Positions 11,999-30,770 of a DNA stretch of 64,000 nt are shown one piece after another. Origin of the DNA: Promethearchaeota archaeon (GTDB taxonomy: Archaea; Asgardarchaeota; Lokiarchaeia; Sigyniarchaeales; SOKP01); contig JAHLWS010000067.1 of assembly GCA_019057795.1 (NCBI GenBank), positions 1 through 64,000 on the forward strand, written 5' to 3'. The notes under the pieces are model-generated. The model was not told where the DNA came from and did not search any database. It worked only from the letters and a program-made list of their open reading frames with translations. The translations under genes and the position numbers were made by a program. Each line of letters opens with the position of its first letter. The stretch's first letter is position 1.

Positions 11999-12221
11999 TT
12001 TTAAACATATTAAAATAGATTAGATAAAATATCTTAGCTAAGAAAATATTATACGTTTTTATTTATTAGATTTAATATAATCTAATGGCATATCGATCGT
12101 TGGTGAATTGCAATAAAAAAATTAAAAATCGAAAGAATATTTTAATCTTTATTATTAACATATAATAATTAAATTTTTCATTATTAAGATATAAAAAATC
12201 GTTTTACCCCTCATATTTAAT

Positions 12222-12295
12222 GGGAGGGTGGTCTAGCTTGGTATGATTCCTGGTTTGGGACCAGGTGGCCGGGGGTTCGAATCCCCCCTCTCCCA
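12222..12295 (+). tRNA. tRNA-Pro (TGG), intronless
   Basis: Acceptor stem GGGAGGG/CTCTCCC+A, anticodon arm CCTGG-TT TGG GA-CCAGG, T-arm GGGGG TTCGAAT CCCCC, poly-T downstream. Confidence 0.96.
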
Positions 12296-12384
12296 TTTTT
12301 AAACTTATTCTTTGATGATTTATGTTAATTCAATTTTAAATTCCAAAAAAAAAAATAATAACTTGAACTTTAAAAGAAAAAGGA

Positions 12385-15676: not shown

Positions 15677-16753
15677 TTACAAATTTAGTTGCTTTTTTAA
15701 CTCTCTTGCGATTTTGGCAACTTTTTTATCTTTTATCCAATATCTAATTTTTGAGGATCGCAAAAAGGTTTGAATTTTCTCATTTAGCTGAAATAATTTT
15801 TCTCTTTCTTCTTTTGATAATTGAGGTATATCTTCTTCGATTTTTTCTTTTACTGCTTTAATTTCTTCTGCAATGATTGGGATTTCTATTTGTTGTTTAC
15901 CTTGAATTAATCTCTTCCTTAATATTTCTTTTATACCATTAATCCAGCCTTGTATCCAAGGATAAGCTCCTTGCTTTCTTGGATCTATTATTCGTATATT
16001 TTTCCGATTAACAACTATCAAATCGTCAGGGCAAGAATTCTCGCACGCTCCGCAATAAAAGCACTTGTCTTCGTTACAAGCAATCTTACCGTATTTTACG
16101 ACGTCTTCGGCGCTCTCAGGAATATAAAATGATTGTACGGGGCAGATATTGATGCATGCCTTGCAATTTTCAGGACTGCATTTATGTAACATATTTTTTT
16201 TAATAATAACTTCCCCTTGAATTGGTGAATCTATTTGAAAGCATTCAACAGGGCATTCCTTTTCAATTTTATAATACTCTTCAATAAAATTTCTTTCTCG
16301 GACATCTAAACATAATTTACAAATTTTAATGTTCCTATCTTCGATACATTTATCCATATCGATCTTATAAAATTTTCCTATAGTAGGGAATTCATTAAGG
16401 TCGATTTGCCCTTCAGGCTCAATATTTTCGTGGAATGCATCATTAGGACATACAATAGCACATAACATACAATAACAGCATTTTTCATGATCTATTAGAA
16501 TTTTAGGGTTACTTTTATCAATTTTTTCTTGAGCAATATCAGGAATGGGTCCTAACTCGATTGCATTAACGGGACAGACTAATTTACACAAACTACAACC
16601 AATACATTTATTAATGTCATAAGTTAGCTTTTTATTAACCTCTTTATATTTCCAATTTAAAATTAATTGATCTGGACCAAACTCTAGGTTTTTTTCTATT
16701 TGATCTTCTTTTTTATCTTCAATCAAGGATGAATTTGAAATCCTAAATAACAC
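15677..16753 (-). CDS. Polyferredoxin (multi-4Fe-4S protein, FwdF-like); intact, probably mosaic copy
   Basis: CIGCSLCKLVCP, CCYCMLCAIVCP, CKACINICP, CFYCGACENSCP. True start may be the ATT four codons downstream. Confidence 0.9.
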   Translation of the reverse strand: MLFRISNSSLIEDKKEDQIEKNLEFGPDQLILNWKYKEVNKKLTYDINKCIGCSLCKLVCPVNAIELGPIPDIAQEKIDKSNPKILIDHEKCCYCMLCAIVCPNDAFHENIEPEGQIDLNEFPTIGKFYKIDMDKCIEDRNIKICKLCLDVRERNFIEEYYKIEKECPVECFQIDSPIQGEVIIKKNMLHKCSPENCKACINICPVQSFYIPESAEDVVKYGKIACNEDKCFYCGACENSCPDDLIVVNRKNIRIIDPRKQGAYPWIQGWINGIKEILRKRLIQGKQQIEIPIIAEEIKAVKEKIEEDIPQLSKEEREKLFQLNEKIQTFLRSSKIRYWIKDKKVAKIARELKKQLNL

Positions 16754-16824
16754 CTACTTGAAACCTTATTATATTTAATATTATTGAATTATTTAAAAAA
16801 CTTTAATTATTATTATAAAAAAAG

Positions 16825-19215
16825 TTATTTTAATCTTTTGAGATCATTATAAAGATAAGTTCTTTTTGAATTTTTGGGGATTTTTCTACTCAATAAGTAT
16901 GAGTTTCTATTAGAATTTGTGATTTTAACAAATTCTAGAAGTTTAGGATATAGATCTTCAGGATTAAACGAATAGGCCATATCTTTACTAAACCCTATAC
17001 ATAATAAACTATTGTTAATGTGGACACCATAATCTTCTAATCTATCCTTTAATAAAATACCATAAGCAGTGAGTTGTGGTAATGATCTATATATTTCATT
17101 CTCATCTTGTTTATAGTCGGCAATTATTAAGAACCCATTTATGAAAAGAATTATGTCAATATGACCAATATTAAATAAGCTTGAATTTTCAATAGGCTTC
17201 CAAACTGGGGATTCAATTGCTATAGTATTATTATCATTTGTTATTATATAAGTCAAAATAGGTGGATGGTCTGGTTTTTTACCTATTCTATTTTTTTTAT
17301 AATGCTCAAAAACCTTTTGAACATATTTACACAAAAAAAAGGAAGAATCATATGCTTTTAATTCATCTTTAAAGAAATCTTCTATATATTCAAATTTTAA
17401 GTGCTCATCATAAGATCCATAAAATTTTAACATTGAGGCTCTGGGATTATCGTTAGACATGAATATATCACGAGGAAAGTTTTCTCTCCAAAGATCATTA
17501 AGAAAGTTATAAAGCCCTAGTTTTAATTGATTATTATTAATGATATTTAAGCATTCTTCTTTCCATCTAAAAGGATATGTAACGCTTTGATGTTTAAAAT
17601 CCCTTCGCTTTAATTCTTGTATATTATTAATCCAATCAATAAAGTATCTTTTATAATATTCTATATGATTTGCTCTTATAAATTCACGAATATTTTCAAA
17701 GGTATTAGGGTCACTGAATGATGTTTTATTTCGAATTACACGTAATACCCCGCTGGTTCCAGGTGTATTATGAATATATAATTTATCTCCAAATTCTTTT
17801 GGCTCCATATCTAAAGATTGATATAATTCAAGTAAAAATTGAGTCTCAATATGATAAAATTCTTTTAAGGATTTTCTCATCATTTTAATAAAAGTTTCTC
17901 TACTATATATCTGCCCTTTATATCTTCCTAGATAATCTGCTATATAATCATATAACCGATTGCCGCTTCGATCATTCACATGAGTAAAATCAAATTCAGA
18001 TCCAAAACATTGTTCTAATTTCATTGGCGTTGCCATATTCTCTAAGCCTTTCATCTTTTTAAATGTATAGTAAAGTAAAGAAAATGCAAAATTCTGTGGA
18101 AAATAATAATCTATTTCGTTGTTTTTATTTATATCCAAAATTGGAAAATCGTTTACAATCGCATAATCAAAAATAGCCATTGCTTTTTCAATTGAATCAT
18201 TAATATCAATTCTTAAATCAGAACTTAAATAAGATTCTAATATATTAATATATTGAGTTAAATAATTTTCTACCTTCTGTTGATATTTATCTTGGTCTAA
18301 AACAAAATATTCTAACATAATTTGATGTAAAACCTCAGTAAAATTAGTACGCGGTATATTAAAGTTTTCATTTTCAAGTAACAAATCAAGAAAGTCCGTC
18401 TTGCTCAATTTAATATTTTTTTCATATTTTAAGAAAATAAAACACATAACCGCTGCCAGTATTTTTGGCTTCTTTTTTTTCAAATCTGCAAAAAAATTCT
18501 GAAATTTATCAGCTCCTTCAATAGAATCAATAATGTCCCAAAGTGAATCAGAAATTTTTTCATAATCACCCTCCGAAAAGTTAATTTCATATAGATTTCT
18601 ACTATTCAGATAATTGATATATTTATCAATATATTTATTGGTTAATGCAAGATATTCATCTTCAGTTAACCTGTCTGCATTTATTAGCTCAAGAATGAAA
18701 TTATATTCAGGAATTCTTTTAAGATGGCTCGAAACTGTAGAACAAACTCGATTTAAACTTGATAAATTTAAATCCAATATATGTGCTAGCAATTTTCGCT
18801 CAATATTTTCACCTAATCTAGCAAAATTGAAGATAATTAAAGAAACGGCGACATAATTAGCGTTTTTAATATTACTGGGGCCAAAGCTCTGGTAGAAAAA
18901 AATAAATTTTTTATCTTCGTTGTCATATAAGATTGAATTTAAAATGTCGTCATACATTTGAATACATTCTTCTCGAAACACTTCATCTAAATTATATTTT
19001 AATTGTAAATTTAATGAACGCACATCTTTCGCAATAGAATCAAAAAGTTCATTTCTGTACTTCTGTGCATCGAGATTCTGGATTTTTTGTGTTAATTTAT
19101 CCTTTTGAATCAAAGTATTATCCCTATACAATTCAGAACCACATGAATTTATATTTTTACGACTAATTTTATTTCGATTTGGATTTTGACAAGGAAATTT
19201 ATCTTCTTTTCTCAT
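16825..19215 (-). CDS. TFIIB/cyclin-like helical repeats fused to a C-terminal RecB-type PD-(D/E)xK nuclease
   Basis: KKPKILAAVMCFIFLK..NIKLSKTDF and NANYVAVSLIIF..ARLGENIERKLLA resemble TFIIB repeats. C-terminus IAIESPVW..GHIDII..IIADYK..PQLTAYG. Confidence 0.7.
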   Translation of the reverse strand: MRKEDKFPCQNPNRNKISRKNINSCGSELYRDNTLIQKDKLTQKIQNLDAQKYRNELFDSIAKDVRSLNLQLKYNLDEVFREECIQMYDDILNSILYDNEDKKFIFFYQSFGPSNIKNANYVAVSLIIFNFARLGENIERKLLAHILDLNLSSLNRVCSTVSSHLKRIPEYNFILELINADRLTEDEYLALTNKYIDKYINYLNSRNLYEINFSEGDYEKISDSLWDIIDSIEGADKFQNFFADLKKKKPKILAAVMCFIFLKYEKNIKLSKTDFLDLLLENENFNIPRTNFTEVLHQIMLEYFVLDQDKYQQKVENYLTQYINILESYLSSDLRIDINDSIEKAMAIFDYAIVNDFPILDINKNNEIDYYFPQNFAFSLLYYTFKKMKGLENMATPMKLEQCFGSEFDFTHVNDRSGNRLYDYIADYLGRYKGQIYSRETFIKMMRKSLKEFYHIETQFLLELYQSLDMEPKEFGDKLYIHNTPGTSGVLRVIRNKTSFSDPNTFENIREFIRANHIEYYKRYFIDWINNIQELKRRDFKHQSVTYPFRWKEECLNIINNNQLKLGLYNFLNDLWRENFPRDIFMSNDNPRASMLKFYGSYDEHLKFEYIEDFFKDELKAYDSSFFLCKYVQKVFEHYKKNRIGKKPDHPPILTYIITNDNNTIAIESPVWKPIENSSLFNIGHIDIILFINGFLIIADYKQDENEIYRSLPQLTAYGILLKDRLEDYGVHINNSLLCIGFSKDMAYSFNPEDLYPKLLEFVKITNSNRNSYLLSRKIPKNSKRTYLYNDLKRLK

Positions 19216-19352
19216 GTTAATCTAACCCGTGTATATTAGGTATATCTAAATTAGAATGTATTAAGAACAAATCCTAATTCCTTACGAAATTTTTATTCCT
19301 ATTAATATTATTATCATGACCTTTTTAAATTTAAAGAAAGAATCTCAGAAAC

Positions 19353-19606
19353 TTATACTACTATAAACGATTACGATTTAATTTAAAATAATCTAACTAT
19401 TTTATCTCTAATAAATTATAATTGCTTTATCTTTATAAATGTTTGCGTTATCCTTTTCTTCGATTTTGTCTTTAAATACAACTCAAAAAATTTAGAGAAA
19501 ATCCAATTTTTACTAATATTCCGTAAAATAGGTAAATAGCTATAGCCAGAAAATACCTTATACTACTATAAACTATTTTAGCGTAAATATTTTATACTAC
19601 TATAAA
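19353..19606. promoter_or_regulatory. Three copies of TTATACTACTATAAA (19353-19367, 19558-19572, 19592-19606)
   Basis: Exact 15-bp repeats with quasi-palindromic core TTATA-CTAC-TATAA, upstream of the 796-aa nuclease gene. Confidence 0.6.
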
Positions 19607-19693
19607 GTATATTATATATTTTGAAAAATTATTTCAAATTAGAGATTTCAGAAAAGCTTTAAGGATTATAATATTGTTGTTTTCTTATAATTC

Positions 19694-20008
19694 TTATCTA
19701 TACATACCTTCAAATTTCTTTTTATCAAATTCTTTAAGCCACTTTTCAGTTAACTCATTAACTGCGTATTTTAAATTCGATGAAATTTGACCTAAACTGA
19801 ATCCATATAACATTGCATATCCTAGTAATTCAGGTAAGACAGTCTCGTGATTTTTTATTGAAAATTCCTTGAAATGATATATATATTTTGAAAAGAATTG
19901 GTTTAATTGTTCCTTGGCGTTTTGGGGGATTTTATCTCTTATCAAAAGAAGAATATTATTAATAAATTGATTTTTAAGGTTTTCAAAATCAATATTAAAT
20001 TCAGACAT
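19694..20008 (-). CDS. Hypothetical protein
   Basis: 104-aa ORF, no recognisable motif. Confidence 0.6.
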   Translation of the reverse strand: MSEFNIDFENLKNQFINNILLLIRDKIPQNAKEQLNQFFSKYIYHFKEFSIKNHETVLPELLGYAMLYGFSLGQISSNLKYAVNELTEKWLKEFDKKKFEGMYR

Positions 20009-20250
20009 ATTTATTAATTTCTATAGTAAATAGTTAAGTTCTTAGGGAGATATGATTTATCAAAAAAAAAAATTTTTTTAAATTAAATTTTTAAGATTAA
20101 ATGTTATATTTTTTGTAAAAGAAATTAAAATGGTAAAAATTAAACATCTCTCATAATGAAGATTAGGAATCTATCGAAAAGAAAAATAATATAAGAAAAT
20201 TTAGAAAAAAAGGTTATCTTTTTGGAGCATTCATCTATTCAAAAGGGGTT

Positions 20251-20739
20251 TCAAAAAGGTTTTTTTTCCAAGTCCAGGGCATCTGGGCTATCATGATTAT
20301 GCATCTCTATTCCCAACCCTATATAAAGTAAACCCATGCCAAATAAGATATAATCGAATAAACCCCCCGTTTCCACATCAAGGTAAGTTATGTTTCCCGA
20401 ATGGGTAGTAACTTGATGAAATCCCTCAATTAATTGTTGTGTAATTGGTGCTAGAAGCCCTCCTAAGAAAAATGTTGTTAAGATCAGTATTCCTGAGAGA
20501 ATGATCATTAGATCCGCTTTCACACATGTATGGTTTTGAAATTGATAGCGAAAAATGATTAATATTCCTGCGATAAAGGTAAGATATGTTGGTGCTTTAA
20601 GGAATCCCCATAAAGTGCCTACATGATTAGATGGAGGTTCAATCTTATAAAATCCCAATGGAAGAATGAGTGCCATACATTGAAACACACCCATTAGAGT
20701 CACAATTCTTTCTGGATTTCTTTTCCCTGTCAATTTCAT
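20251..20739 (-). CDS. Hypothetical membrane protein (about 4 TM)
   Basis: Four hydrophobic segments, GAGGG RBS. Confidence 0.7.
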   Translation of the reverse strand: MKLTGKRNPERIVTLMGVFQCMALILPLGFYKIEPPSNHVGTLWGFLKAPTYLTFIAGILIIFRYQFQNHTCVKADLMIILSGILILTTFFLGGLLAPITQQLIEGFHQVTTHSGNITYLDVETGGLFDYILFGMGLLYIGLGIEMHNHDSPDALDLEKKPF

Positions 20740-20999
20740 TTGTCCCTCATATAATTTATTTAATTCTAAATATCTTTGTAGTAAATATTATACCATCTCT
20801 ATAAATGAACTTTCAAAATCTGGCATGATACTTCATATTTTAAAACGATTTTAATGTTAAGATTTCCCGTAATAATAATATTTATTGAATTTATTTAATG
20901 TACAAATAACTTAACATTTAGTCATTTTTAATAAATAATCCTTTTTTTTTCTCATTAATCGCTTTCTCTCTCTGGTGTCCCACCTTGGTGCACTCCTAA

Positions 21000-21611
21000 T
21001 TAATTAGTGGATTTACTAAACTTAACTTTTTTTTCCTTAAATAGAATAACTGAATGGTCAGCTTTCCAAGAAACTGTATCAAACTCAACAATAATGATCT
21101 CTTCGCCCCCTTTCCCGTTCCAGTTGTTTATATCTTTCTTACGCTTATCTATGGATCTTTTGGTACCTAATATAACTTCAATACCATTAGAATATTTCAA
21201 ACGTGCATGAGTCTTAAACAATACTAGTTTTTTAAGATCTTCTTTTATATCATTCTTTGATCTGGTAGCTAACTTAAATTCAATAACAGCGAGATTATTA
21301 TCTGAATCTGGTGAGTGAATAATGAAATCTGGCGACTTCCCCTTCTTAAAATAATGTTGATATGTCTTATCCACTTCTGCTTGAATTATTGGTCCATCAA
21401 AATCCACATCACCATTTTGCATTAATTTTCGAAATTGTTGGTAAAACTCATAAGCGAAAGGTCTTTCTAAATGTTTGTCTTTAGATTTATCTTCAATAAT
21501 AGGTTTTCGTTTTTTTTTTTTATTATAATCTATTTGTGACAATCTACAAGTATTTTTATCCATATTATCAAGAGCTAATTTAATAGCTTCAACAACTTCT
21601 TTAATTACCAT
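21000..21611 (-). CDS. Small PD-(D/E)xK restriction-endonuclease-like protein
   Basis: ERPFAYEFY...AEVDK...SPDFIIH...LAVIEFK...DLKKL. Confidence 0.75.
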   Translation of the reverse strand: MVIKEVVEAIKLALDNMDKNTCRLSQIDYNKKKKRKPIIEDKSKDKHLERPFAYEFYQQFRKLMQNGDVDFDGPIIQAEVDKTYQHYFKKGKSPDFIIHSPDSDNNLAVIEFKLATRSKNDIKEDLKKLVLFKTHARLKYSNGIEVILGTKRSIDKRKKDINNWNGKGGEEIIIVEFDTVSWKADHSVILFKEKKVKFSKSTN

Positions 21612-22066
21612 TGGTTAACATCTCGAGTATATTTATAATGTATATTTTTGTCTTAATTTATAATAAACATAACAGAATATATCTTTTTCCCCCATTTTCT
21701 TCAATAATTGTTCTTTCGCTTCCCGTGTTACCCATCTAAATTACATATTCTTTATATCAGTTTATGTCTCATTTTATTATTAAAATTTAAAAACATTTCT
21801 AGAGTAGTTAAGTATATCTTAATATCAATTCTCTCCCCCGTGGTGCCCCCTCCTAAAAAATTAGGTTTAGAACGATCTCATTAATAAAGAATAGATTAAA
21901 ACATTAATAACCACTTTCGAATCTCTCAAGTATCGCTAAAACTATTAAATATATAATTCCTAATCTTGGACGGGATAAAGACAAGGAGAATATAGTTCAA
22001 TATAATCCTGAGGAAGATAATGATTCTGAACAAATCTTTTTATACAAAAAGATCTAAATAATATAT

Positions 22067-22603
22067 ATGCCAAAAATTGATTTGGACAAATATCCAAAAA
22101 TTGCTCAAATGCATGCATCAGCAGGTTGCATCCCCGTTAATATTGAAAATGCTCTGAAATATAATGGTGAAAAAGACTATGATGAGCTAAAATTATTATT
22201 TTTTTGCCAAACTAGAAATATACCATTAGGTTTTAAAGAATTTGGTCCCGAACTAGCTAAAATCTTGAAAGGATTTAAAATTATTTTCAAAAATATTGAC
22301 GATTTTAATCACTCGATTGAGAAAGTTGTGGAGTATATTAAATCAAATATAGATGAAAAAATACCTGTATTGGTTTCCTTCAAACAAGTAATAAAAGTTC
22401 CAATTATGGAGAAGAATAACCCTAAACCTATAGGATGGCAAGAAGCTGAAGTTGCTCATATCAGAACAGCAATCGAATATAATGATTCTGAGTTATTCTT
22501 TTTTGATCCAGGAGATTGTGAAACGAAAAAGTATAGCTATTTAACTGATGAGTTTTCCAACATTATTAAGGGAGATTATCACACCTTAGTTATCAAAAGA
22601 TAA
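22067..22603 (+). CDS. Peptidase C39-like (papain-fold) protein
   Basis: Q...AGCIP (Cys), IPVLV, AHIRTAIEY (His), FFDPG (Asp). Confidence 0.65.
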   Translation: MPKIDLDKYPKIAQMHASAGCIPVNIENALKYNGEKDYDELKLLFFCQTRNIPLGFKEFGPELAKILKGFKIIFKNIDDFNHSIEKVVEYIKSNIDEKIPVLVSFKQVIKVPIMEKNNPKPIGWQEAEVAHIRTAIEYNDSELFFFDPGDCETKKYSYLTDEFSNIIKGDYHTLVIKR

Positions 22604-23076
22604 GATGAATGAAAATTGTTTATTTAATATCTTTTTTTTTATTTAATACTGAAAATAGGTCTACAGTATTCTTTCATTTCTTTTAGGAGGTCTGATGAGG
22701 GAAAAAATTTGTCCGTATCATAAAGTATAATTAATGAATTGAGAACTACAATGAATTTGTGATTTAAGATTTTAAACTCATCTTGAATCCTTACAAGATT
22801 TATGTTATATCATTGTAAGATAATTAAGTTTGAAATCATAATTCAATGATAATTTTGTATTTATAATAAAAAAAAATGAATCTAGTAATCAATAAATAAG
22901 ATACATTATTAATTGAATATTTAGATTATTTAAGAGATATTAGCTATAAACTTCAACACCTAGATGCTAGAGTCAAGCAATCCGAAGCAGAAATGCTATT
23001 TCATAATACAATAAATATTATTAATATCCTTTATTTATAGACTACATTAATGATCATCTTCTTATCAAGATCTGCT

Positions 23077-26000
23077 TCATTTAATTTCTTTTAATGAATC
23101 TGGGATTGAACAATTTGGAGCTACCTTAATAATGTAAAATTTTGGATTTAATAAAGTTAAATAATCATCTAATGAAATCTCAATCTCCTTATCTGTATAG
23201 ATTCTTAAATCAACGTTATTTTCATTAAATTTTTTAAGATCTTCTGGTAAAATTCTTAATTCTGGAAGCTCAACCCATAAATGTGTTAAATTGGATAACT
23301 CATGGAGGAAATCTGGAAATTTGCAATTAGGTTTTACCTTAATCTTGAAAGTACAAATATCTTTTGGATTCCAAAAATCATTTGAAAATTCAATAAATTT
23401 ATCTGTTATGATCAATTGCTGTATTTGTTTGAAATGCATTAAATCTCTTGGTATTTGTTCAATAAACTCCATATTTACCTCAAGATAAATTAAATTTTTA
23501 CATTCCTTAACAAAATAGGGAAAAAAATTATTGTTATCAATTCTTACATATGTAATTTTATCGAAATTACTCTCTAATAAATCAAAAAATCTACTTATTC
23601 TTGAACCTGAAACCCTTAAATGAGTAATGTTTTGAGTATTTGAAAATTGTATAGGTTTTCTATGCAAGATCGAAATTTCCATACGATTATTTTTATTATC
23701 TTCCCAAAAATTTTCTTGGAAATCTTGAGAACCCCCGAATGAAATGTGTAGACACTTTACTTTTGGAAGATTTTTAATTAATTCTGGAATTTTATCTAAT
23801 GGAGGATTTATCCAACGTATGTATGATAAATTTTTAAGATTCTCCCATGATTTTGGTAAGTCTTTTGCTGCTATATCATTTATTTGAAGATGTGTTAAAT
23901 TTTCTAATTTATTAAGCGATTCACTTAATATGCATCTTTCATTTACTCTAAGTTCTAATCTAAATTTAGTTTCTTTGATTCCAAATTCTCCAGTTAATTT
24001 ACTTAATTCTTTAGATGTTATTAAAGTTTGATTAAATTGAGTCAAATTTCCAAGAAAATTTGGTAATTCTGTCAACTGAGAAAGAGAAATTCGAAGATGT
24101 GTTAACTTTTGCATGTAAATCTTATTTTTAGGGAATTTACAATCCTTTCTTACTCTTATCATAAAGTTCCCCTTATTATCATCATCAAGAAAATTTTCTA
24201 TAGGTGAAGGTAATTCTTTTTCTGTTATATATATCTTTTTAATATGAGATGAGGTAAATACCCATTCTTTTAAATCATTAATAGCAAGGTGATCTATTCT
24301 GAGGTTAATTAAATTTTTAAAATCATTTACTATATTCGGTAAAATAGTTTGGCCTCTTGAAAATCCGAATAAATATATTCCTTTCCCAGAAATCTTCCAA
24401 AAGTTTAATTTTTTAAAAAATTCTTTTGTAAGATTTTCTTGATTGGTGATTAGAAGCTTTTTTAATCTGCCATTAATTGATACATTTTTTGGGAATCTAG
24501 TAAGAACCTTAATCCATACTTTTTTAATATGAGAAGGAATAGTTAACTCATTTAATATGAATTGTGTATGGAGGTTAACTAGTACTCGAGAACTATCTAA
24601 TTGGTATTGATCCATATAATCATTGATATCTTCTAGATTTTGAGATATATTAATTAAAATGTTCTGAAACATTTCCCACTTAAATACAATATCCGGTAAG
24701 ATATTTGAGAATTGAGAATTGATGATTATCTCACTTAGTTTAGAGCAAGATTTTAAACTTTCAGGAAAATTAAATTTAAAGAAATTTTCTATATAAATTG
24801 ATTCAAGATTCTTTAATAAAGAAATTGATTCATGCAGATTCAGTACAAATTGATGACCTTTTACTAGAATATCAATTATTTTTAAATTTTTAATTGTAGA
24901 GTTTTTCCCAAATTTAATTAATTCTCCCTTAAGTTCTAAAGATTCTAATTCTTCTAAGGACCAAAATAGATCTTTAAATTCAAAATAGTTTTGCATTTCA
25001 AATATATTCAATAAACCCTTTGGTATTTTTAATGTTAAAGAACTAATATACTCATTAGAATTTGTAATCCCATAAGCAAATTCACCAGAATAATCTTTTA
25101 AATGATTTAAATAATCAATAACAACAGCATCCTTAATTTTTAAATTAATTTTTTCTAGTTTTGGTGTTAATTGTCCTTTAATTTCTATTCTATCATCTAC
25201 CATTAGTAAATTATCGTCAATATAATCAATAGATGGTAAAGTTTGCTTTTTTGGATGAAATGAAATATAAGTATTTTTCAATAAATTGACAAATTTAAGA
25301 TCCTTGAATTCATGCCACCATGAGTTAATTGATTTTATATTGTTGTTTTGAATATTCATTCTATATAATCTGTCTAATTTTGTTAATGTATCTGGAAGTT
25401 CTTTTAATTCATTATATCCTAAATTTAGAATTTCTAAATTTTTTAATCTACCAATATCTTTAGGTAGTTTTGGTAATTCATTATCTTGAAGATCTAATTT
25501 CTTTAAACCTATTAATTTATAAACCCCTTTGGGAATACTTTTTGTTTTCATATGATCTAAATATAATTCCGATACACGATCATTAATATCAATCACATAA
25601 CCTTGATGTCTCTTCAATTCTTCGAAATCTGAAAGATTTCTTAATCTATGATTTCCGATTTCAAATTCAATTTCTTCTAATGAATTTGCATCGGATTTAC
25701 AAATTTCAAATTCCTGAAATCTTTGTTTCAATTTAGAACTATAGTGTTCAATAAAACCTTGATATTCTTCTTGAAAGTAATACTTAAATTGAGTCTTTGT
25801 TTTATCTATTTTTATAATACCACTAGAATAAATTACATCCCAACTTCCTTTTCTGTCATGTTTAAATTTACTAAGCTCATTATCAAGAATGGGAGTATAA
25901 GGATCAGCAATAATACTAACTAAATCTTTGAAATCATTTTCTACAGTACCCACAATTCCCATTCTATTTAAAATAGTATTTTCATTTTGGCGACTTTCGA

Positions 26001-27957
26001 AAAGATTATACCACTCATCTTCAGTTGGATTGAATTTTTTTTCGACTATATATACATTACTTTCAAATATTATTCTAATTATAAAAGGTTTCATCAATAA
26101 TCTCTTTACAAGTTTATCCTTAACCTTTTCATAATTTATCCCATAATTTTCATTGATCTTTTTTAATCGTGCTAAATCTTTAATATCTGAAAGAATATAA
26201 CTTGTACCAGTAGGAATATCATTATCTTCAAAGTTATTGAATTTATCATTTTGAAAAATATACCGTTTATATTGTCTATAATTTCTGATTATTTCTTTAG
26301 TATTTATCCAATCTACTAATCTTGATGTTAATAATATAATTAGGTGCTCATAGTTCTTTTCTAAATCAATCAAATCACAGAGATTATTTAGGAAATCTCC
26401 TCTCTCATCTTCAGTTAATTCCTCAAAACCGTCAAAGATTAGAAAGAGATCTCTTTTTTTTCTCTCATTAAATGCAAGTAATTTAGGTATTTTGCAAGAA
26501 TCTTTATTAAATCCTCCTAATATATTTTCAAACCGATCTTCATATGAGCGAAGATGAAAATAAAAAGTTGGGATTTTCTTCTGCTTGATATATTCAAATG
26601 CGAGATATGATGCATTCCATGTTTTTCCCAATCCCATATGCCCTAATAATAAGAAAATTCTATTTTTTCCTTGGGGATTCTTAAGGGTTCTAAAAAAATT
26701 TTCAAAAATATTTTCAAGATCTGGGTCTTTTTCAAATAGATCTAGATTGAATCTAGTTTCGAACCTTGAAGCAAGATCTACTAATTCTAACTGTTGTAAA
26801 CAATAATTAAGTAAAACATCATCTTCAAATTCAATTATTTCATTATGATTTTTCGCTCTTAATCTCCATAAAGGTATCTTAAAATTTTCAATAGTAAAAT
26901 CAAGCTGACTCCTCCAATCTATGCTTTTTGTGTTTAAATTCCCTAATTTCGAAATCAGGCGTGAACTTATAACTTCAAAAAATGAAGGATTTTTTTCATA
27001 ATAGCCCTTAAGTAAACTTAATGTTTGAAATAATTTATCAAAAATTTTTTCTTTTTGAATAGTATTATCTTCATAAAAATTAACTATCTCTGCTATAATT
27101 TGCGATACAATTTCTCTTAGTTCAGTAAGGCGGACTTTTTTAATTATTTCTTTTCTATTTGAGTCTTTTATCTTAATTTGAAGGAACTTGTCTAAATATT
27201 TATATAAGTTATTAATAAAAAGTATTTTATTATCTAAATTCAATGTGACTATGAAAATTATTGCCCATTCTACAGTATCTCGTAAATTTTTATCAAATTC
27301 TTCAAGAAATACTTGTTCTAAATTTATATTAAGAAAATCTTCTAATCCATTCTCAATTGTATTTGAATCCTTACAAAATAACTGATAATCATCTTCACCT
27401 ATATTACTCTGTAATTTAATCTTTCTTATAGCACTTTTATATGCATTTTCAATTTTATTATTATTGCAAAAAACTTCATAAAAACCTTCTGAAAATGTGA
27501 TTGCGTGATTATCATAAATTTTCCGTTTGGTTCCCACCGAGCAAGGCAAAAATTCAGAGACTTTCTTGGCAATCTTTAAAGATTCACAAGAATTAAAAAT
27601 TACAATTTTAATATTATTTTTAAAATTTTTGAGGACATCAACAGTGTCTTCCAAAAGAAACTTAGAGTCATAAATTTCCTTAAAATGAACATCATCTTCA
27701 AAATAAAATCCACTGGATAATTCACCATGTCCAGCAAAATGGATCATTTGAGGTTGATATCGTGAGATATATTCAAAAAATTCATTTCTTTCGGTGGCAA
27801 AAGCAGGTTCAAGATGAATAAATTCACGAAATGGTGACTTTTCTATTATTTTCTTAATTATCTTGAATTCTTTATCAATTCGAGTCTTAATCGTACTTTC
27901 TTTGAAATTTGCCGAAAGAAATAAAATGGTAAATTTCTTCTTTCTTAATGCCAACAT
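23077..27957 (-). CDS. CHAT (caspase-like) protease - STAND/NACHT-like NTPase - leucine-rich repeat protein
   Basis: ILFLSAN, IHFAGHG and IFNSCES (His/Cys dyad). Walker A GHMGLGKT, Walker B LIFDGFEE, sensor LLTSR. LRRs such as LKKLDLQDNELPKLPKDIGRLKNLEILNLGYNELKELP. Confidence 0.88.
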   Translation of the reverse strand: MLALRKKKFTILFLSANFKESTIKTRIDKEFKIIKKIIEKSPFREFIHLEPAFATERNEFFEYISRYQPQMIHFAGHGELSSGFYFEDDVHFKEIYDSKFLLEDTVDVLKNFKNNIKIVIFNSCESLKIAKKVSEFLPCSVGTKRKIYDNHAITFSEGFYEVFCNNNKIENAYKSAIRKIKLQSNIGEDDYQLFCKDSNTIENGLEDFLNINLEQVFLEEFDKNLRDTVEWAIIFIVTLNLDNKILFINNLYKYLDKFLQIKIKDSNRKEIIKKVRLTELREIVSQIIAEIVNFYEDNTIQKEKIFDKLFQTLSLLKGYYEKNPSFFEVISSRLISKLGNLNTKSIDWRSQLDFTIENFKIPLWRLRAKNHNEIIEFEDDVLLNYCLQQLELVDLASRFETRFNLDLFEKDPDLENIFENFFRTLKNPQGKNRIFLLLGHMGLGKTWNASYLAFEYIKQKKIPTFYFHLRSYEDRFENILGGFNKDSCKIPKLLAFNERKKRDLFLIFDGFEELTEDERGDFLNNLCDLIDLEKNYEHLIILLTSRLVDWINTKEIIRNYRQYKRYIFQNDKFNNFEDNDIPTGTSYILSDIKDLARLKKINENYGINYEKVKDKLVKRLLMKPFIIRIIFESNVYIVEKKFNPTEDEWYNLFESRQNENTILNRMGIVGTVENDFKDLVSIIADPYTPILDNELSKFKHDRKGSWDVIYSSGIIKIDKTKTQFKYYFQEEYQGFIEHYSSKLKQRFQEFEICKSDANSLEEIEFEIGNHRLRNLSDFEELKRHQGYVIDINDRVSELYLDHMKTKSIPKGVYKLIGLKKLDLQDNELPKLPKDIGRLKNLEILNLGYNELKELPDTLTKLDRLYRMNIQNNNIKSINSWWHEFKDLKFVNLLKNTYISFHPKKQTLPSIDYIDDNLLMVDDRIEIKGQLTPKLEKINLKIKDAVVIDYLNHLKDYSGEFAYGITNSNEYISSLTLKIPKGLLNIFEMQNYFEFKDLFWSLEELESLELKGELIKFGKNSTIKNLKIIDILVKGHQFVLNLHESISLLKNLESIYIENFFKFNFPESLKSCSKLSEIIINSQFSNILPDIVFKWEMFQNILINISQNLEDINDYMDQYQLDSSRVLVNLHTQFILNELTIPSHIKKVWIKVLTRFPKNVSINGRLKKLLITNQENLTKEFFKKLNFWKISGKGIYLFGFSRGQTILPNIVNDFKNLINLRIDHLAINDLKEWVFTSSHIKKIYITEKELPSPIENFLDDDNKGNFMIRVRKDCKFPKNKIYMQKLTHLRISLSQLTELPNFLGNLTQFNQTLITSKELSKLTGEFGIKETKFRLELRVNERCILSESLNKLENLTHLQINDIAAKDLPKSWENLKNLSYIRWINPPLDKIPELIKNLPKVKCLHISFGGSQDFQENFWEDNKNNRMEISILHRKPIQFSNTQNITHLRVSGSRISRFFDLLESNFDKITYVRIDNNNFFPYFVKECKNLIYLEVNMEFIEQIPRDLMHFKQIQQLIITDKFIEFSNDFWNPKDICTFKIKVKPNCKFPDFLHELSNLTHLWVELPELRILPEDLKKFNENNVDLRIYTDKEIEISLDDYLTLLNPKFYIIKVAPNCSIPDSLKEIK

Positions 27958-28326
27958 TTTAATGATTTTTACATAAATAATTGAATGTAATCGACATTAA
28001 TAAAATTCTAATAAATGTTTCTTATGTCTTTTGATTTTGAATTTCATTTATTAAAAATAATAATGACAATTTGCTTTATTATATTAAATGATAATCTAAC
28101 CTTATATATATTTAATTTTTAGAGGGAATTCATAGTTAATTTTTCTCTTTAATCGTTTTTAATAACGAACACATTATTCCTTTTTCAATTTTTCCTCAAT
28201 AAATTTTAATCTAGGACAATGATGAACATCAGAAGCATAATCGCATTTTGGAAAAGAAATTTTTTCCGAGTCCTCAATTATTATCATGGGATTAAAACAA
28301 ATATATGTATGGATAGAAGTAGGTCT

Positions 28327-29655
28327 TTATACATCTAATTCTACTTTCTTTGAAAGGAATAACTCCCCAGTTCTTAATTTTACAAATGCTTGTATTTTAT
28401 ATGGAGGTTTTACTTCTTCTGCATCTAAAAAATGAGTAAGTTGCATTTTATTAATCCTATGAAAAAATGATTTGGTGGGTTTTAAAAAATCATTTAGATT
28501 TTCATCAAGTTTAATATCAGAATTTATGTATATTCCAAATCTCCCCACTTCAAAAGGATAATTTCCAGTATTTTTAAATGCCAATTCTAAAAAATCCAAC
28601 AGTGATAAATGCATAGGTTCTAAAAAAGGAGAGGTTTTCAACATTTGTCTATATCCTTTTAGAGTTATCTCACAAAAAGGAATCTCTCTTGGAATTTTTA
28701 GCTCATAACCATAAATAGAGAGGATATAATCTTTTAATTCCGTTAAAATTTCTACTATATGGCTGAAATTAGAATATAACAGTTTTTTACCTTCTTTTTG
28801 AATTTGGATTCTCGTACCTTCCATATATGAACTTGTCATGATAATATATTTTTCTCCAATGATGTCAATTTTATTAGAAAATCCTTTTCTTTTTTGAAAA
28901 ATTTCTATACCAAAATAGATTTTCTCTTCAGAAAATCGCAAATCTTGTAATATTTGTTTTATCTCATCCACAGAGAGTCGATTTTTTGAAAGCTTGGATA
29001 AAAAGATTGCGAAACGATTGAAATAAGCTTGTAATTTAACATGTTGAGCTTCTGAAATAGAATCTCTAGGGTACGAAGAGCTTGTATCCTCTTTCCATTT
29101 GAGCTTGACTTGATTCAAGATTTCTTCGGCATAAGAGTAATTCTCAATCCATCGTATCTTTCTCTTGCCTTCTTTCTTAAGATGTTGTAGTCGTTCTATG
29201 AACTCATATAGTCCCATTTGAGCTTTATATCCTAAATTAGAAAAATTTTCCTCTAAATAACCCTCATCATGTTTTCTGTGTTTATGATACATTCCTGCTT
29301 GTGTAAAGGTATTCCGGTAAATGAATATCAAGATAGGTATATTTTCACGATGAGCTGTCATGAATTCTTCTTCGGTTATTGAATATTTATAGGAACCATC
29401 AGGATATGTCTCGGAAGTATTATAAGGAATGCCATATCTCTCTTTCAAAACTAATATAAATCTATCGCATTTCTTTACATTTTCCAAGCATGTATCAAAT
29501 GTATCCTCGTTTTCAACATCAAATCGTTTATGAAACCAAATAGGTTCATACTCTAATTCTGGTAATCGGCTTTCTAGGTGTTCTAATACATCCTTTACAT
29601 CATCAGTACCTGCAAGAAAAACACATTCTTTTCTTTTTCTAGAATCATTCATCAT
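28327..29655 (-). CDS. DUF4062 (TIR-like) domain protein with unknown C-terminal half
   Basis: VFLAGT, CLENVKKCDRFILVLKERYG, SITEEEFMTA...IPILIF. Confidence 0.82.
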   Translation of the reverse strand: MMNDSRKRKECVFLAGTDDVKDVLEHLESRLPELEYEPIWFHKRFDVENEDTFDTCLENVKKCDRFILVLKERYGIPYNTSETYPDGSYKYSITEEEFMTAHRENIPILIFIYRNTFTQAGMYHKHRKHDEGYLEENFSNLGYKAQMGLYEFIERLQHLKKEGKRKIRWIENYSYAEEILNQVKLKWKEDTSSSYPRDSISEAQHVKLQAYFNRFAIFLSKLSKNRLSVDEIKQILQDLRFSEEKIYFGIEIFQKRKGFSNKIDIIGEKYIIMTSSYMEGTRIQIQKEGKKLLYSNFSHIVEILTELKDYILSIYGYELKIPREIPFCEITLKGYRQMLKTSPFLEPMHLSLLDFLELAFKNTGNYPFEVGRFGIYINSDIKLDENLNDFLKPTKSFFHRINKMQLTHFLDAEEVKPPYKIQAFVKLRTGELFLSKKVELDV

Positions 29656-29966
29656 TAGAACATAGAATTCTTGAATTTAACTTATCTTTAAATTGCATAT
29701 AAAATAAATTAGGAATATATAAACACTAATATATATCTATTGAAGTATTTTTTTTTTTAATCTTTATAAATTAGTAGGTATTTCAATGCTTCACACTACT
29801 ATGAAGTTATATTTTTAATTATTTTTAAGGGTATTAATATTGGTTTCAACTTAATATTCTGGAAATGAAAATTAGTTTAATCAACAATTCTCTCTAAAAA
29901 TATCGATTATCCCATTTATATTCTTAGTTATTTCCCTGATATTTTTAGAAACTGCATAGATTAATG

Positions 29967-30300
29967 TTATTCCAGTGATGACCATTCCAATTCCATATAA
30001 AAATTTTGAAGAATCGATTTGAGGTAATCGATTCCAAGTCGATTTTCAGGAAAACGAGGAATGATATCCTTTATATTATTAAACAGATAAGAATATCTTG
30101 GTTGTTTTTGTGCTTTTCCTGCTTTTTCTCTTTGGTTTTTTTTATAAATAGTTAAATTTTCTTTAAATTTCTTCGCATGACCATCTGTAGCAAGTACAAT
30201 AATCCAGTTGTCTCCTTCTTTTTCTAAGATTTCGATGCCACTATTTTTTAAAGAATCCTCATTTACTTCAAATAGATCATTACCTTTTAACTCTTGTTCA
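29967..30300 (-). pseudogene. Foreign gene fragment fused in frame to the polyferredoxin 5' remnant; possibly N-terminal region of an IetS-like S8 peptidase
   Basis: LKNSGIEIL...IIVLATD...FKENLTIY...PRYSYLFNNIKDI...PENRLG resembles, from memory, defence-associated S8 protease N-termini. No catalytic domain follows. Confidence 0.35.
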
Positions 30301-30770
30301 ATAATATGATTCCTATCTCTAACGGTCAAACATAATTGACAAATTTCATGATCTTTATCCTCGGTACACTTATTAAAATCAATTGTATAGAATTTGTCTA
30401 TGGCAGGGAATTCTTCTAAGGAAATCTGTCCTTCAGGTTCGATATTCTCGTGAAATGCGTTGGTAGGGCAAACCACGACACATAGCATGCAATAACAGCA
30501 TTTATCGTGATCAATAAAGAGTTTAGGGTTAGAATCGTCTAAGATATTTTGGGCAATCTCCGGAATTGGTCCTAGCTCTATAGCATCAACGGGGCAGACG
30601 AGTTTACATAAACTACATCCAATACATTTTTTAATGTCATAAGTTAAAACTTTCTTAACATCCTTATATTTCCAATTTAGAACTAATTGATCTATAGCAA
30701 TATCTAAGGTTTTCTCGATTTCCTCTTCTTTATCCTCGTCTAGTTTTTCTTTTGCTGAAGATTCAGTAAT
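30300..30770 (-). pseudogene. Orphaned 5' half of the polyferredoxin gene (ATT start)
   Basis: Open frame ITESSAKEKLDEDKEEEIEKTL..DQLVLNWKYKDVKKVLTYDIKKCIGCSLCKLVCPVDAIELGPIP..CCYCMLC..VRDRNHI, colinear with the first ~157 aa of 15677-16753; homology then stops abruptly. Confidence 0.92.

What the first reader, a model, noticed from the sequence alone, without database searches (positions are those of the whole stretch)
23077..27957. NLR-like immune protein: caspase-like CHAT + STAND NTPase + LRR sensor in one polypeptide
Seen: intact CHAT dyad (HFAGHG, FNSCES), a helical linker, an NTPase with Walker A GHMGLGKT, Walker B LIFDGFEE and LLTSR, then roughly 800 aa of LRRs. Established: effector-NTPase-LRR is the layout of animal and plant NLRs. 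Prokaryotic STAND defence proteins (Avs, bacterial NACHTs) mostly use TPR, WD40 or other sensors, and animal inflammasomes recruit caspases in trans. Inference: a self-contained inflammasome-like antiviral receptor in a probable Asgard archaeon, relevant to the origin of eukaryotic innate immunity.
Basis: partly seen in the sequence, partly recalled or inferred. Interest (0 to 1): 0.88.

Follow-up and report, generated by a model that had tools for sequence, protein, structure and literature searches.

The report
Asgard caspase-NACHT-LRR immune-type sensor
One intact 1626-residue gene of a Lokiarchaeon-like (Asgard) archaeon joins a caspase-type protease, an NLR-type ATP switch and about 30 leucine-rich repeats; it sits on a mobile DNA island and is most likely a single-gene anti-invader sensor, an archaeal variant of bacterial NLR-related proteins and not a shown ancestor of animal inflammasomes.

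Summary
Window 23077-27957 (-) is one intact ORF. Residues 1-205 are a CHAT caspase-like protease: His77 and Cys124 are kept in all 13 homologs that have the domain, and the fold matches SAVED-CHAT at Z 23.5. Residues 206-372 are a helical domain. Residues 373-768 are a divergent NACHT-like STAND NTPase (Z 16.3 to NLRC4; 98.9% profile match to NACHT-positive proteins). Residues 769-1626 are a leucine-rich-repeat (LRR) solenoid with a 23-residue period.

Sister proteins on the same NTPase-LRR chassis carry a Cap4 nuclease or a greasy N-terminal helix in place of CHAT. The gene lies on a 13.5-kb AT-rich island inserted in a polyferredoxin gene, and sister species have the empty site. No neighbouring gene is conserved. 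Homolog loci hold restriction-modification, HEPN, Schlafen, SIR2 and reverse-transcriptase genes. The LRR part has recombined between alleles.

Best reading (about 0.68): a self-contained NLR-like defence sensor with a protease output. An antiviral role is inferred, not shown.

A link to the origin of eukaryotic immunity is not supported. There is no detectable sequence affinity to eukaryotic NLRs. Bacterial CHAT-NACHT and NACHT-LRR proteins are already described.

This scan met the same island and family before on other DNA (e1-4772872, e1-2537089, e1-5444821).

Verdict: new variant of a known kind.

The parts
23077..27957 (-). Whole gene, 1626 aa: CHAT, helical domain, NACHT-like STAND NTPase, LRR array
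   Evidence: pairwise dN/dS is 0.10-0.92 by domain and pair, 0.6 or less except in one helical-domain pair with almost no substitutions
27343..27957 (-). CHAT caspase-like protease domain, residues 1-205; catalytic His77 (27727-27729) and Cys124 (27586-27588)
   Evidence: Family profile against PDB finds 8tl0_A 'CHAT domain-containing protein' at E 3.7e-16 with His and Cys aligned. VIA-align Z 23.5, rmsd 2.6, 194 residues to SAVED-CHAT; Z 13-14.6 to legumain, caspase-7 and MALT1. The dyad is kept in 13 of 13 homologs.
26842..27342 (-). Helical domain, residues 206-372. It belongs to the NTPase chassis and is present in relatives that lack CHAT.
   Evidence: AF2 model is all helices with pLDDT mostly 80-93. 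Profile positions 183-380 match CHAT-less relatives. The homologous N-terminal stretch is a basic plus Gly/Ala-rich hydrophobic segment in those relatives.
25654..26841 (-). STAND NTPase module (NBD-HD1-WHD), residues 373-768; Walker A 26620-26643, Walker B 26419-26445, sensor-1 LLTSR 26320-26334
   Evidence: VIA-align Z 16.3 to NLRC4 (317 residues), 15.1 to CED-4, 14.9 to NRC4. Pfam NPHP3_N 27.2 bits, over its cut-off. hhalign to NACHT-positive proteins gives probability 98.9%, E 2.2e-17.
23077..25653 (-). LRR solenoid, residues 769-1626 plus stop; about 30 units of about 23 residues
25003..25272 (-). Conserved non-LRR insert in the repeat array, residues about 896-985 (beta strands plus one long helix)
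   Evidence: Secondary structure. Invariant K/D/Y/L columns in the family alignment. No 23-residue periodicity here.
16754..30296 (.). 13.5-kb AT-rich island that carries the gene, inserted at the 5' end of a polyferredoxin gene
   Evidence: GC is 0.25-0.29 inside and 0.30-0.36 in the flanks. Empty site in G057 and G121; variant islands at the same site in G311 and L016.
16283..16582 (.). Left copy of the 300-nt diverged direct repeat, inside the intact polyferredoxin gene (15677-16753)
   Evidence: 71% identical to the right copy
30303..30602 (.). Right copy of the direct repeat, inside the orphan 5' remnant of the polyferredoxin gene (30297-30746)

Best explanation
The gene encodes a single-chain NLR-type switch that most likely works in conflict with viruses or other mobile elements. 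Shown in silico: an N-terminal CHAT protease with an intact His77/Cys124 dyad, a NACHT-like STAND NTPase with intact Walker A, Walker B and sensor-1 motifs, and a long LRR solenoid. Inferred by analogy with NLRs, Avs and bNACHT proteins: in the resting state the LRR arm and the ADP-bound NTPase hold the protein closed. Binding of an unknown ligand, probably invader-derived, to the LRR arm allows nucleotide exchange and oligomerisation of the NTPase modules. This brings the CHAT domains together and switches them on, as filament assembly does for SAVED-CHAT and proximity does for caspases. The active protease then cleaves cellular or invader proteins that are still unknown, which stops growth or kills the infected cell. 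No partner gene is needed. The gene travels as cargo of a 13.5-kb island that inserts in a polyferredoxin gene, and its sensor end is reshuffled by recombination between alleles.
For: Domains. Catalytic and NTP-binding residues are conserved across the family. All domains are under purifying selection, with pairwise dN/dS of 0.10-0.17 in the NTPase and 0.15-0.6 elsewhere, apart from one helical-domain pair with almost no substitutions. Effector swapping on one chassis: P0019 has a Cap4 dsDNA nuclease (45.4 bits, cut-off 26.2) where CHAT sits; P0017, P0018 and P0021 have only a hydrophobic N-terminus. In the quick tree these all fall in one LRR-bearing clade (SH-aLRT 100) with a single CHAT gain. 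Sensor swapping in the wider NTPase clade: of 39 members, LRR families match 12-15, TPR 4, HEAT 3 and WD40 1. Mobility and sporadic spread: no other of 300 same-phylum genomes matched the full-length CHAT-plus-NTPase profile at E<=1e-20. Two sister species have the empty site, and G311 has the gene at 84% identity in an island with otherwise different cargo. Defence-type neighbours of homologs: Hypoth_Ymh, HEPN, SLFN_AlbA_2 and RT+RNase_T; SIR2_2-TPR; a type IIG restriction-modification gene; weak AbiTii. In the window itself the next gene has DUF4062, which 2026 preprints report as a TIR-like NADase used in anti-phage defence. Intragenic mosaicism, G000 against L016: dS 0.01-0.03 in the first 400 codons and 0.46 in the last 326. 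That last part is closer to G311, a pattern of recombination at the sensor end. No conserved neighbour.
Against: There are no experimental data of any kind for this family. PADLOC models give no hit, so it belongs to no validated defence family as modelled. Most neighbours in the window's own island have no recognisable function. No domain shows dN/dS above 1, so diversifying selection on the sensor is not shown, only recombination. The NTPase is so divergent that no solved STAND protein is found by sequence. The one Pfam model that passes, NPHP3_N, is unspecific: it rings in 11 of 14 control genomes. Trigger, substrate and oligomeric state are unknown.
Confidence: 0.68

Rival explanations
1. 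Same molecular switch but not anti-viral: a regulated-proteolysis signalling protein used for self/non-self recognition, programmed death or interaction with syntrophic partners. The LRR arm would sense a cellular or partner-derived ligand.
For: Asgard genomes hold many LRR proteins of unknown function (10.64898/2026.10.28.762692). Caspase-STAND proteins in bacteria are linked to multicellular habit and regulated death (PMC7159879; 10.1101/2020.01.06.895854). No known trigger or virus link was found here.
Against: The gene is cargo of a mobile island that sister species lack. It is swapped with a Cap4 nuclease effector and sits beside restriction, HEPN, SIR2 and RT genes in other loci. This pattern is typical of defence genes, not of a lineage's own developmental circuitry.
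Confidence: 0.15
2. A selfish module of the island: the protein serves the mobile element, for example by excluding competing elements or by post-segregational killing, and not the host.
For: It is the most constant cargo of the polyferredoxin-site islands, together with a 796-aa PD-(D/E)xK protein. Island genes are more similar between G000 and G311 (84% and 80%) than the flanking polyferredoxin is (72%). In another sample a contig joins the polyferredoxin edge directly to the 3' end of this gene.
Against: More distant homologs (36-65% identity) lie in other contexts without that island or the 796-aa gene. No antitoxin-like partner is conserved. Element-borne defence and host defence are not mutually exclusive.
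Confidence: 0.1
3. The CHAT domain is not the output. It is inactive, or acts only on its own chain, and the protein works as a scaffold or is decaying.
For: The single-sequence Pfam CHAT score is below the cut-off (19.9 against 24). The domain is short, about 200 aa against a 289-position model. P0016, nested among CHAT-bearing proteins, has lost the domain.
Against: The dyad is kept in 13 of 13 homologs. Pairwise dN/dS of the domain is 0.15-0.58. The fold matches an active CHAT protease at Z 23.5. The ORF is intact in four alleles.
Confidence: 0.04

Closest known systems
Bacterial NLR-related NACHT proteins (bNACHT; Kibby et al., Cell 2023, read here as preprint 10.1101/2022.07.19.500537), e.g. 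bNACHT16 with C-terminal LRRs
   Same: Tripartite layout of N-terminal effector, central NACHT and C-terminal repeat sensor. Peptidases including caspase-like ones are listed among their effectors, and LRR, TPR and HEAT among their sensors. They are single-gene systems that act by abortive infection.
   Different: No PADLOC model matches. The NTPase clade is very divergent, and the only members that carry a source name are from Promethearchaeota. It has a 170-residue helical domain ahead of the NTPase. I did not find the CHAT + NACHT + LRR combination in one chain described in the papers I read.
CHAT-NACHT proteins of bacteria and of Ca. Lokiarchaeum ossiferum (WP_371804803.1 = P0080); an ESM Atlas cluster of 106 mostly cyanobacterial proteins with NACHT 93% and CHAT 89%
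   Same: A short N-terminal CHAT of the same subtype, followed by a NACHT-type NTPase.
   Different: Their NACHT modules are a separate lineage: they form long-branched outgroups in the tree and pass Pfam NACHT, which this protein does not (15.2 bits). Pfam finds no LRR in the seven scanned. CHAT therefore seems to have been joined to NACHT-type modules more than once.
SAVED-CHAT protease of type III CRISPR signalling (PDB 8tl0)
   Same: Best match of the N-terminal domain by sequence profile (E 3.7e-16) and by fold (Z 23.5, 22% identity), with the His and Cys aligned. The entry's title calls it an activated filament; from my own knowledge, that protease is switched on by assembly into the filament.
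   Different: The switch there is a SAVED domain that binds a cyclic oligoadenylate. It has no NTPase and no LRR.
Gasdermin-associated CHAT/C14 proteases fused to NACHT, LRR, TPR or WD40 (Johnson et al., preprint 10.1101/2021.06.07.447441)
   Same: A caspase-like protease fused directly to recognition modules, proposed to couple ligand sensing with cleavage.
   Different: Pfam finds no gasdermin among the neighbours, and no neighbour is conserved across loci.
Animal inflammasomes and apoptosomes (NLRC4, NLRP3, Apaf-1/CED-4)
   Same: The NBD-HD1-WHD fold (Z 16.3 to NLRC4, 15.1 to CED-4) and the logic of sensor, then oligomerisation, then caspase-type protease.
   Different: In animals the caspase is recruited in trans through CARD/PYD adaptors; here it is in cis, and no death-fold domain was found. 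Animal NLR LRRs have 28-29-residue units (established knowledge), against 23 here. There is no significant sequence similarity and no evidence of direct descent.
Avs (antiviral STAND) proteins
   Same: STAND NTPases with swappable N-terminal effectors that sense invader proteins.
   Different: No PADLOC Avs model matches. Avs sensors are mostly TPR-like. The Walker B here is of the NACHT type, D-G-x-[DE]-E.

Membership tests
NLR architecture (effector, NOD, LRR) | Central STAND nucleotide-binding oligomerisation module of NACHT or NB-ARC type | tested here: met
   Fold Z 16.3 to NLRC4 and 15.1 to CED-4 over about 300 residues; hhalign probability 98.9% to NACHT-positive proteins.
NLR architecture (effector, NOD, LRR) | C-terminal leucine-rich repeats | tested here: met
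   Pfam LRR_14 at 58.1 bits and LRR_8 at 33.9 bits; AF2 solenoid whose top matches are FLS2, SHOC2 and TLR8; lag-23 periodicity z 6.6.
NLR architecture (effector, NOD, LRR) | N-terminal effector or adaptor domain | tested here: met
   CHAT protease domain, replaced by a Cap4 nuclease in sister protein P0019.
NACHT clade of STAND NTPases | Walker A GxxGxGK[ST]; Walker B hhhhD followed by a tiny residue, with acidic residues two and three positions on (D-G-x-D/E-E); sensor-1 Arg (TSR) | tested here: met
   GHMGLGKT, FDGFEE and LLTSR are present and invariant in the family. The motif definition comes from Koonin and Aravind 2000 and Leipe et al. 2004, recalled from my own knowledge.
NACHT clade of STAND NTPases | Passes the curated Pfam NACHT model (PF05729) | tested here: not met
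   15.2 bits against a cut-off of 26.7. The related NPHP3_N model passes (27.2 against 24.8) but is unspecific. In the wider clade, 13 of 39 members match NACHT at E<=1e-3 and 24 of 39 match NPHP3_N.
NACHT clade of STAND NTPases | Phylogenetic placement inside NACHT rather than NB-ARC, SWACOS, MalT or the nSTAND clades | tested here: inconclusive
   Only a comparison with NACHT-positive CHAT-NACHT proteins was possible. No reference set of the other clades was at hand. The structural Z-scores of NLRC4, CED-4, NRC4 and ORC-type ATPases lie within about 2 of each other.
CHAT / clan CD caspase-like peptidases | Caspase-hemoglobinase fold with a His-Gly ... Cys catalytic dyad after strands 3 and 4 | tested here: met
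   Z 23.5 to SAVED-CHAT and 13-14.6 to legumain, caspase-7 and MALT1. His77 and Cys124 align to the His and Cys of 8tl0 and are kept in 13 of 13 homologs.
CHAT / clan CD caspase-like peptidases | Passes Pfam CHAT (PF12770) | tested here: inconclusive
   19.9 bits against a cut-off of 24 for the protein alone; 25.4 bits 'with its neighbours in the frame' in the genome search. The close CHAT relatives pass clearly.
CHAT / clan CD caspase-like peptidases | Peptidase activity | not testable with these tools
   Needs biochemistry.
Known defence families as modelled (Avs1-5, bNACHT and others in PADLOC 2.0) | Match to a family model | tested here: not met
   No PADLOC family matches even at E<=1.
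Roco proteins (LRR-Roc-COR) | Ras-like Roc GTPase followed by a COR domain, with the LRRs on the N-terminal side | tested here: not met
   No Roc or Ras Pfam hit in the protein. The NTPase matches STAND and AAA+ folds. The order here is NTPase then LRR.
Inflammasome in the strict sense | Caspase recruited through death-fold (CARD/PYD) adaptors; gasdermin or cytokine substrates | tested here: not met
   No death-fold domain and no gasdermin were found in the protein or its neighbours by Pfam. The protease is fused in cis.
Anti-phage or anti-virus defence system | Protection phenotype | not testable with these tools
   Only contextual evidence is available.

The most novel reading that the evidence does not exclude
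The CHAT protease was grafted onto a chassis whose ancestral N-terminal output is a basic stretch plus glycine-zipper hydrophobic helix and helical bundle. That module may attack membranes, as CC, HeLo and Bell domains do. In the CHAT-bearing proteins the protease may act on its own chain after oligomerisation, releasing or unmasking this module. Sensor, caspase-like activator and executioner would then all lie in one polypeptide.
Probability: 0.07. Interest if true: 0.8.

Novelty: new variant of a known kind. Interest (0 to 1): 0.45.

Why it matters
Asgard archaea hold unusually many LRR proteins, and a 2026 structural survey calls their function unresolved. This family places some of those repeats in a concrete role, as the sensor arm of an NLR-type switch with a protease output. 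It shows that the layout of effector, NACHT and LRR was assembled by domain shuffling inside Asgard archaea. Protease, nuclease and greasy-helix heads are exchanged on one chassis.

That bears on the debate over whether NLR architectures are inherited or convergent, and here the evidence favours convergence. The family also gives a testable single-gene candidate defence system for a lineage with almost no experimentally known immunity. In addition, a CHAT-NACHT protein with a closely related CHAT domain but a separate NACHT lineage exists in the cultured Ca. Lokiarchaeum ossiferum.

It does not make the origin of eukaryotic innate immunity directly testable.

Tried and rejected
- PADLOC scan of the protein: no family even at E<=1.
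- NCBIfam: only LRR-driven partial hits to Xop effectors, far below their cut-offs. These say nothing about function.
- Profile of the NTPase clade against all PDB sequences: no significant STAND hit. Classification therefore rests on fold, motifs and profile-profile comparison.
- CHAT-domain homodimer with complex prediction: 'no answer' (score 0.35, mark 0.42, one control at 0.38). This is no evidence either way.
- Search for a conserved partner. The DUF4062 neighbour is absent from G311, L016 and the more distant loci. It does not resemble the upstream gene of P0015.
- The small ORFs downstream of homologs are unrelated to each other, and none of 30 aa or more exists in the window.
- Pfam found no gasdermin in the neighbours.
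- PHROGs scan of island genes: nothing, so the island is not recognisably viral.
- RNA evidence: one 1392-nt contig of a metatranscriptome library covers 25789-27177 at about 95% identity. This shows presence in an RNA library, not transcription.
- ESM Atlas feature search: only weak STAND-type leads with scores 0.90-0.93.
- Roco reading: rejected.
- Expanded NLR repertoire in this genome: not seen. The own genome gave only two CHAT and two NPHP3_N matches.
Full report
OBSERVATION

The window has one ORF of 1626 codons on the minus strand at 23077-27957. Its start agrees with that of its homologs.
- HFAGHG at residues 73-78
- FNSCES at 121-126
- GHMGLGKT at 439-446
- FLIFDGFEE at 505-513
- LLTSR at 542-546

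N-TERMINAL DOMAIN (residues 1-205)

The single-sequence Pfam CHAT score is below threshold (19.9 bits against 24). A profile of 17 homologs, however, finds exactly one solved protein. This is the SAVED-CHAT protease 8tl0, at E 3.7e-16, with the His of GHG and the Cys of N-x-C aligned.

An AlphaFold2 model of residues 1-780 has mean pLDDT 84.8. It superposes on SAVED-CHAT at Z 23.5 (rmsd 2.6 A, 194 residues, 22% identity). It then matches legumains, caspase-7 and MALT1 at Z 13-14.6. His77 and Cys124 are kept in all 13 homologs that have the domain. This is a CHAT-type caspase-fold peptidase with an intact dyad.

NTPase (residues 373-768)

The model aligns over about 300 residues with:
- human NLRC4, Z 16.3
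- CED-4, Z 15.1
- plant NRC4, Z 14.9
- Dark, Z 14.8
- archaeal Walker-type ATPases and ORC, Z 14.5-14.7

The fold is therefore NBD-HD1-WHD, but structure alone does not pick a STAND clade.

By sequence the module is very divergent. Pfam NPHP3_N passes (27.2 against 24.8), while NACHT (15.2) and nSTAND3/5 do not. The NPHP3_N model is unspecific, since it rings in 11 of 14 control genomes. A profile of a 39-member clade finds no solved STAND protein (NLRC4 E 0.085).

Three results still tie it to NACHT:
- The Walker B is D-G-F-E-E, with a tiny residue after the Asp and acidic residues two and three positions on. Sensor 1 is T-S-R. Both are NACHT signatures, taken from established knowledge.
- 24 of 39 clade members match NPHP3_N, 14 match nSTAND_NTPase5 and 13 match NACHT. 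NB-ARC is not among the 25 most frequent families.
- hhalign against the NTPase regions of seven CHAT-NACHT proteins, six of which pass Pfam NACHT, gives probability 98.9% and E 2.2e-17 over 238 columns. These columns cover Walker A, Walker B, sensor 1 and the P-L/F helix of HD1.

C-TERMINUS (residues 769-1626)

Pfam sees LRRs only at 794-873. A model built on 17 homologs (pLDDT 82.8) is a run of strand-plus-short-helix units about 23 residues apart. All 50 best Foldseek matches are long LRR proteins such as FLS2, RGFR1, SHOC2, TLR8 and Leptospira LRR proteins (E 2e-11 and weaker). Hydrophobic residues recur at lag 23 with z 6.6 against shuffles.

A segment of about 90 residues (about 896-985) is not LRR-like but is among the best conserved parts of the C-terminal half. 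Its role is unknown.

FAMILY AND EVOLUTION

A word-indexed search found 18 homologs with the same layout. An exhaustive profile search found thousands of proteins that share only the CHAT domain, and a few dozen that share only the helical domain plus NTPase.

The NTPase relatives carry different sensors. Of 39 members, LRR families match 12-15, TPR 4, HEAT 3 and WD40 1. They also carry different heads. P0019 has a Cap4 dsDNA endonuclease domain (45.4 bits) exactly where CHAT sits. Many others begin with a basic stretch and a Gly/Ala/Pro-rich hydrophobic segment (Kyte-Doolittle 1.6-2.2), followed by the helical domain.

I built a quick maximum-likelihood tree of the NTPase module, with SH-aLRT support only and a midpoint root. 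Four fragments or near-duplicates were left out. The tree puts all long-LRR proteins in one clade (support 100) and needs a single gain of CHAT (support 93). P0016 is nested inside and has lost it. The NACHT modules of other CHAT-NACHT proteins are long-branched outgroups. CHAT was therefore added to an existing helical-NTPase-LRR chassis, and CHAT has probably been joined to NACHT-type modules more than once.

The only family or clade members that carry a source name are from Promethearchaeota (P0015, P0024, P0031), and some members come from the Loki's Castle sediment metagenome. Core genes of the window cluster at 90% or more with Promethearchaeota/Lokiarchaeota Loki_b31 proteins. The window also encodes an Arf/Ras-type small GTPase and Cdc48. 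The host is a Lokiarchaeon-like Asgard archaeon.

GENOMIC CONTEXT

A lead from earlier notes of this scan led me to test whether the gene lies on an insertion. It does.
- A 300-nt direct repeat (16283-16582 and 30303-30602, 71% identical) marks an intact polyferredoxin gene and an orphan copy of its 5' part.
- GC falls to 0.25-0.29 between the repeats.
- In two species of the same genus (G057, G121) the polyferredoxin gene directly follows the 166-aa, HTH and Cdc48 genes, with nothing in between.
- A third species (G311) has an island at the same site. It carries this gene at 84% identity and a 789-aa PD-(D/E)xK protein at 80%, but otherwise different cargo, including a Metallophos-TPR protein. 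Its polyferredoxin is only 72% identical.
- A metagenome contig (L016) holds a further rearranged version. A cold-seep contig joins the polyferredoxin edge straight to the 3' end of this gene.

Among 300 other genomes of the phylum, none matched the full-length CHAT-plus-NTPase profile at E<=1e-20. This is a sample, not proof of absence.

More distant homologs lie beside defence-type genes:
- Hypoth_Ymh, HEPN, Schlafen-AlbA and RT-RNase_T genes
- a SIR2-TPR gene
- a type IIG restriction-modification gene

In the window the next gene upstream has a DUF4062 domain. Three 2026 preprints report this domain as a TIR-like NADase of anti-phage systems. No neighbour is conserved across loci, so the protein appears to work alone.

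SELECTION AND RECOMBINATION

I ran pairwise Nei-Gojobori estimates on four alleles. Nearly all values show purifying selection: dN/dS is 0.10-0.17 in the NTPase and 0.15-0.58 in CHAT, the helical domain and the LRR. The one exception is 0.92 in the helical domain of the G000-L016 pair, where there are almost no substitutions. No domain exceeds 1.

Between G000 and L016, dS is 0.01-0.03 in the first 400 codons but 0.46 in the last 326. That last segment of G000 is closer to G311. The gene is therefore a recombinant mosaic, with exchange at the sensor end.

MECHANISM

Shown in silico: three intact modules in the order effector, switch, sensor, with conserved catalytic and nucleotide-binding residues. 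The family also exchanges effectors and sensors, and the gene is mobile and sporadic.

Inferred by analogy with NLRs, Avs, bNACHT and SAVED-CHAT: a ligand binds the LRR arm, the NTPase modules oligomerise in a nucleotide-dependent way, and the CHAT domains are activated by proximity. Proteolysis then arrests or kills the cell.

The trigger, the substrate and the protection phenotype are all unknown. A homodimer prediction for the CHAT domain gave no verdict.

COMPARISON WITH WHAT IS KNOWN

Kibby et al. describe bacterial NACHT proteins with LRR, TPR or HEAT sensors, and with peptidase effectors that include caspase-like ones. bNACHT16 is a NACHT-LRR protein (restated in PMC12169576). Johnson et al. 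report CHAT and C14 proteases fused to NACHT, LRR, TPR or WD40 next to bacterial gasdermins. Leao et al. list NLR hits in Asgard genomes without describing their architecture.

CHAT-NACHT proteins are common in cyanobacteria, and one is present in Ca. Lokiarchaeum ossiferum. An older statement that prokaryotic NLRs 'do not display LRR repeats' is therefore outdated.

What is new here:
- an Asgard clade that PADLOC does not detect
- the triple combination of CHAT, NACHT and LRR in one chain
- the helical N-terminal extension of the NTPase
- carriage on a polyferredoxin-site island

This scan has already met the same island type and related Asgard NLR-like families on other DNA. My results agree with those notes but were obtained independently.

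VERDICT

The gene is a new variant of a known kind, the prokaryotic NLR-related single-gene sensors. It is of moderate interest for Asgard biology and for the convergent assembly of NLR layouts. I found no evidence that it is ancestral to eukaryotic NLRs or inflammasomes.

Noticed in passing
window 16754-30296; repeats 16283-16582 and 30303-30602; L028, L029, L030: A 13.5-kb AT-rich island is inserted at the 5' end of a conserved polyferredoxin gene and leaves an orphan 5' remnant. Two sister species have the empty site, and G311 and a metagenome contig (L016) have variant islands at the same site. No integrase was recognised.
   Followed up: yes
window 16825-19215 (-); L029 2756-5125; L016 13405-15771: A 796-aa protein with a weak PD-(D/E)xK/Cas4-like C-terminus is the other constant gene of the three related islands (80-88% identity). 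It may be the island's mobility protein. It has no Pfam hit over cut-off and no PHROG hit.
   Followed up: partly
window 28327-29655 (-): A 442-aa protein with an N-terminal DUF4062 domain (47.7 bits) lies 369 bp upstream on the same strand. 2026 preprints describe DUF4062 as a TIR-like NADase of anti-phage systems. It is not conserved next to homologs of the main gene.
   Followed up: partly
proteins P0017, P0018, P0021, P0045, P0057, P0065, P0069, P0073, P0079, P0091, P0096, P0099; homologous to residues ~215-250 of the window protein: Relatives without CHAT begin with a Lys-rich stretch and a Gly/Ala/Pro-rich hydrophobic segment (Kyte-Doolittle up to 2.2) ahead of the helical domain. This may be a membrane-acting head. 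The stretch is degenerate in the window protein (1.37).
   Followed up: partly
window 23077-27957, compared with L016 3911-8782 and L029 9682-14562: The gene is a recombinant mosaic. Against L016, dS is 0.01-0.03 in the first 400 codons but 0.46 in the last 326, and that last part is closer to the G311 allele.
   Followed up: yes
window 25003-25272 (-), residues ~896-985: A conserved non-LRR insert (beta strands plus a long helix, with invariant K-D and Y-L positions) interrupts the repeat array. Its function is unknown.
   Followed up: partly
L029 5789-8605 (-): The G311 island carries a 938-aa calcineurin-like phosphoesterase fused to about 12 TPRs, another conflict-type architecture, in place of the window's small unknown genes.
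   Followed up: partly
window 35353-35946 (-): A 197-aa small GTPase of the Arf/Ras/Roc type, a eukaryotic-signature-type protein consistent with an Asgard host.
   Followed up: no
window 13170-15578 (+): An 802-aa protein with several winged-helix HTH domains lies just outside the island, next to tRNA-Pro (12221-12296).
   Followed up: no
window 22067-22603 (+): A 178-aa protein with a near-threshold Peptidase_C39_2 match (23.3 bits against 24) converges on the 3' end of the main gene. It is absent from the related islands.
   Followed up: no
G000 contigs C65:148165-148644, C66:11464-11838, C13:14812-14934: The genome holds one further CHAT match (865-aa frame) and two NPHP3_N-type NTPase matches (2027-aa and 886-aa frames). 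I did not examine them.
   Followed up: no
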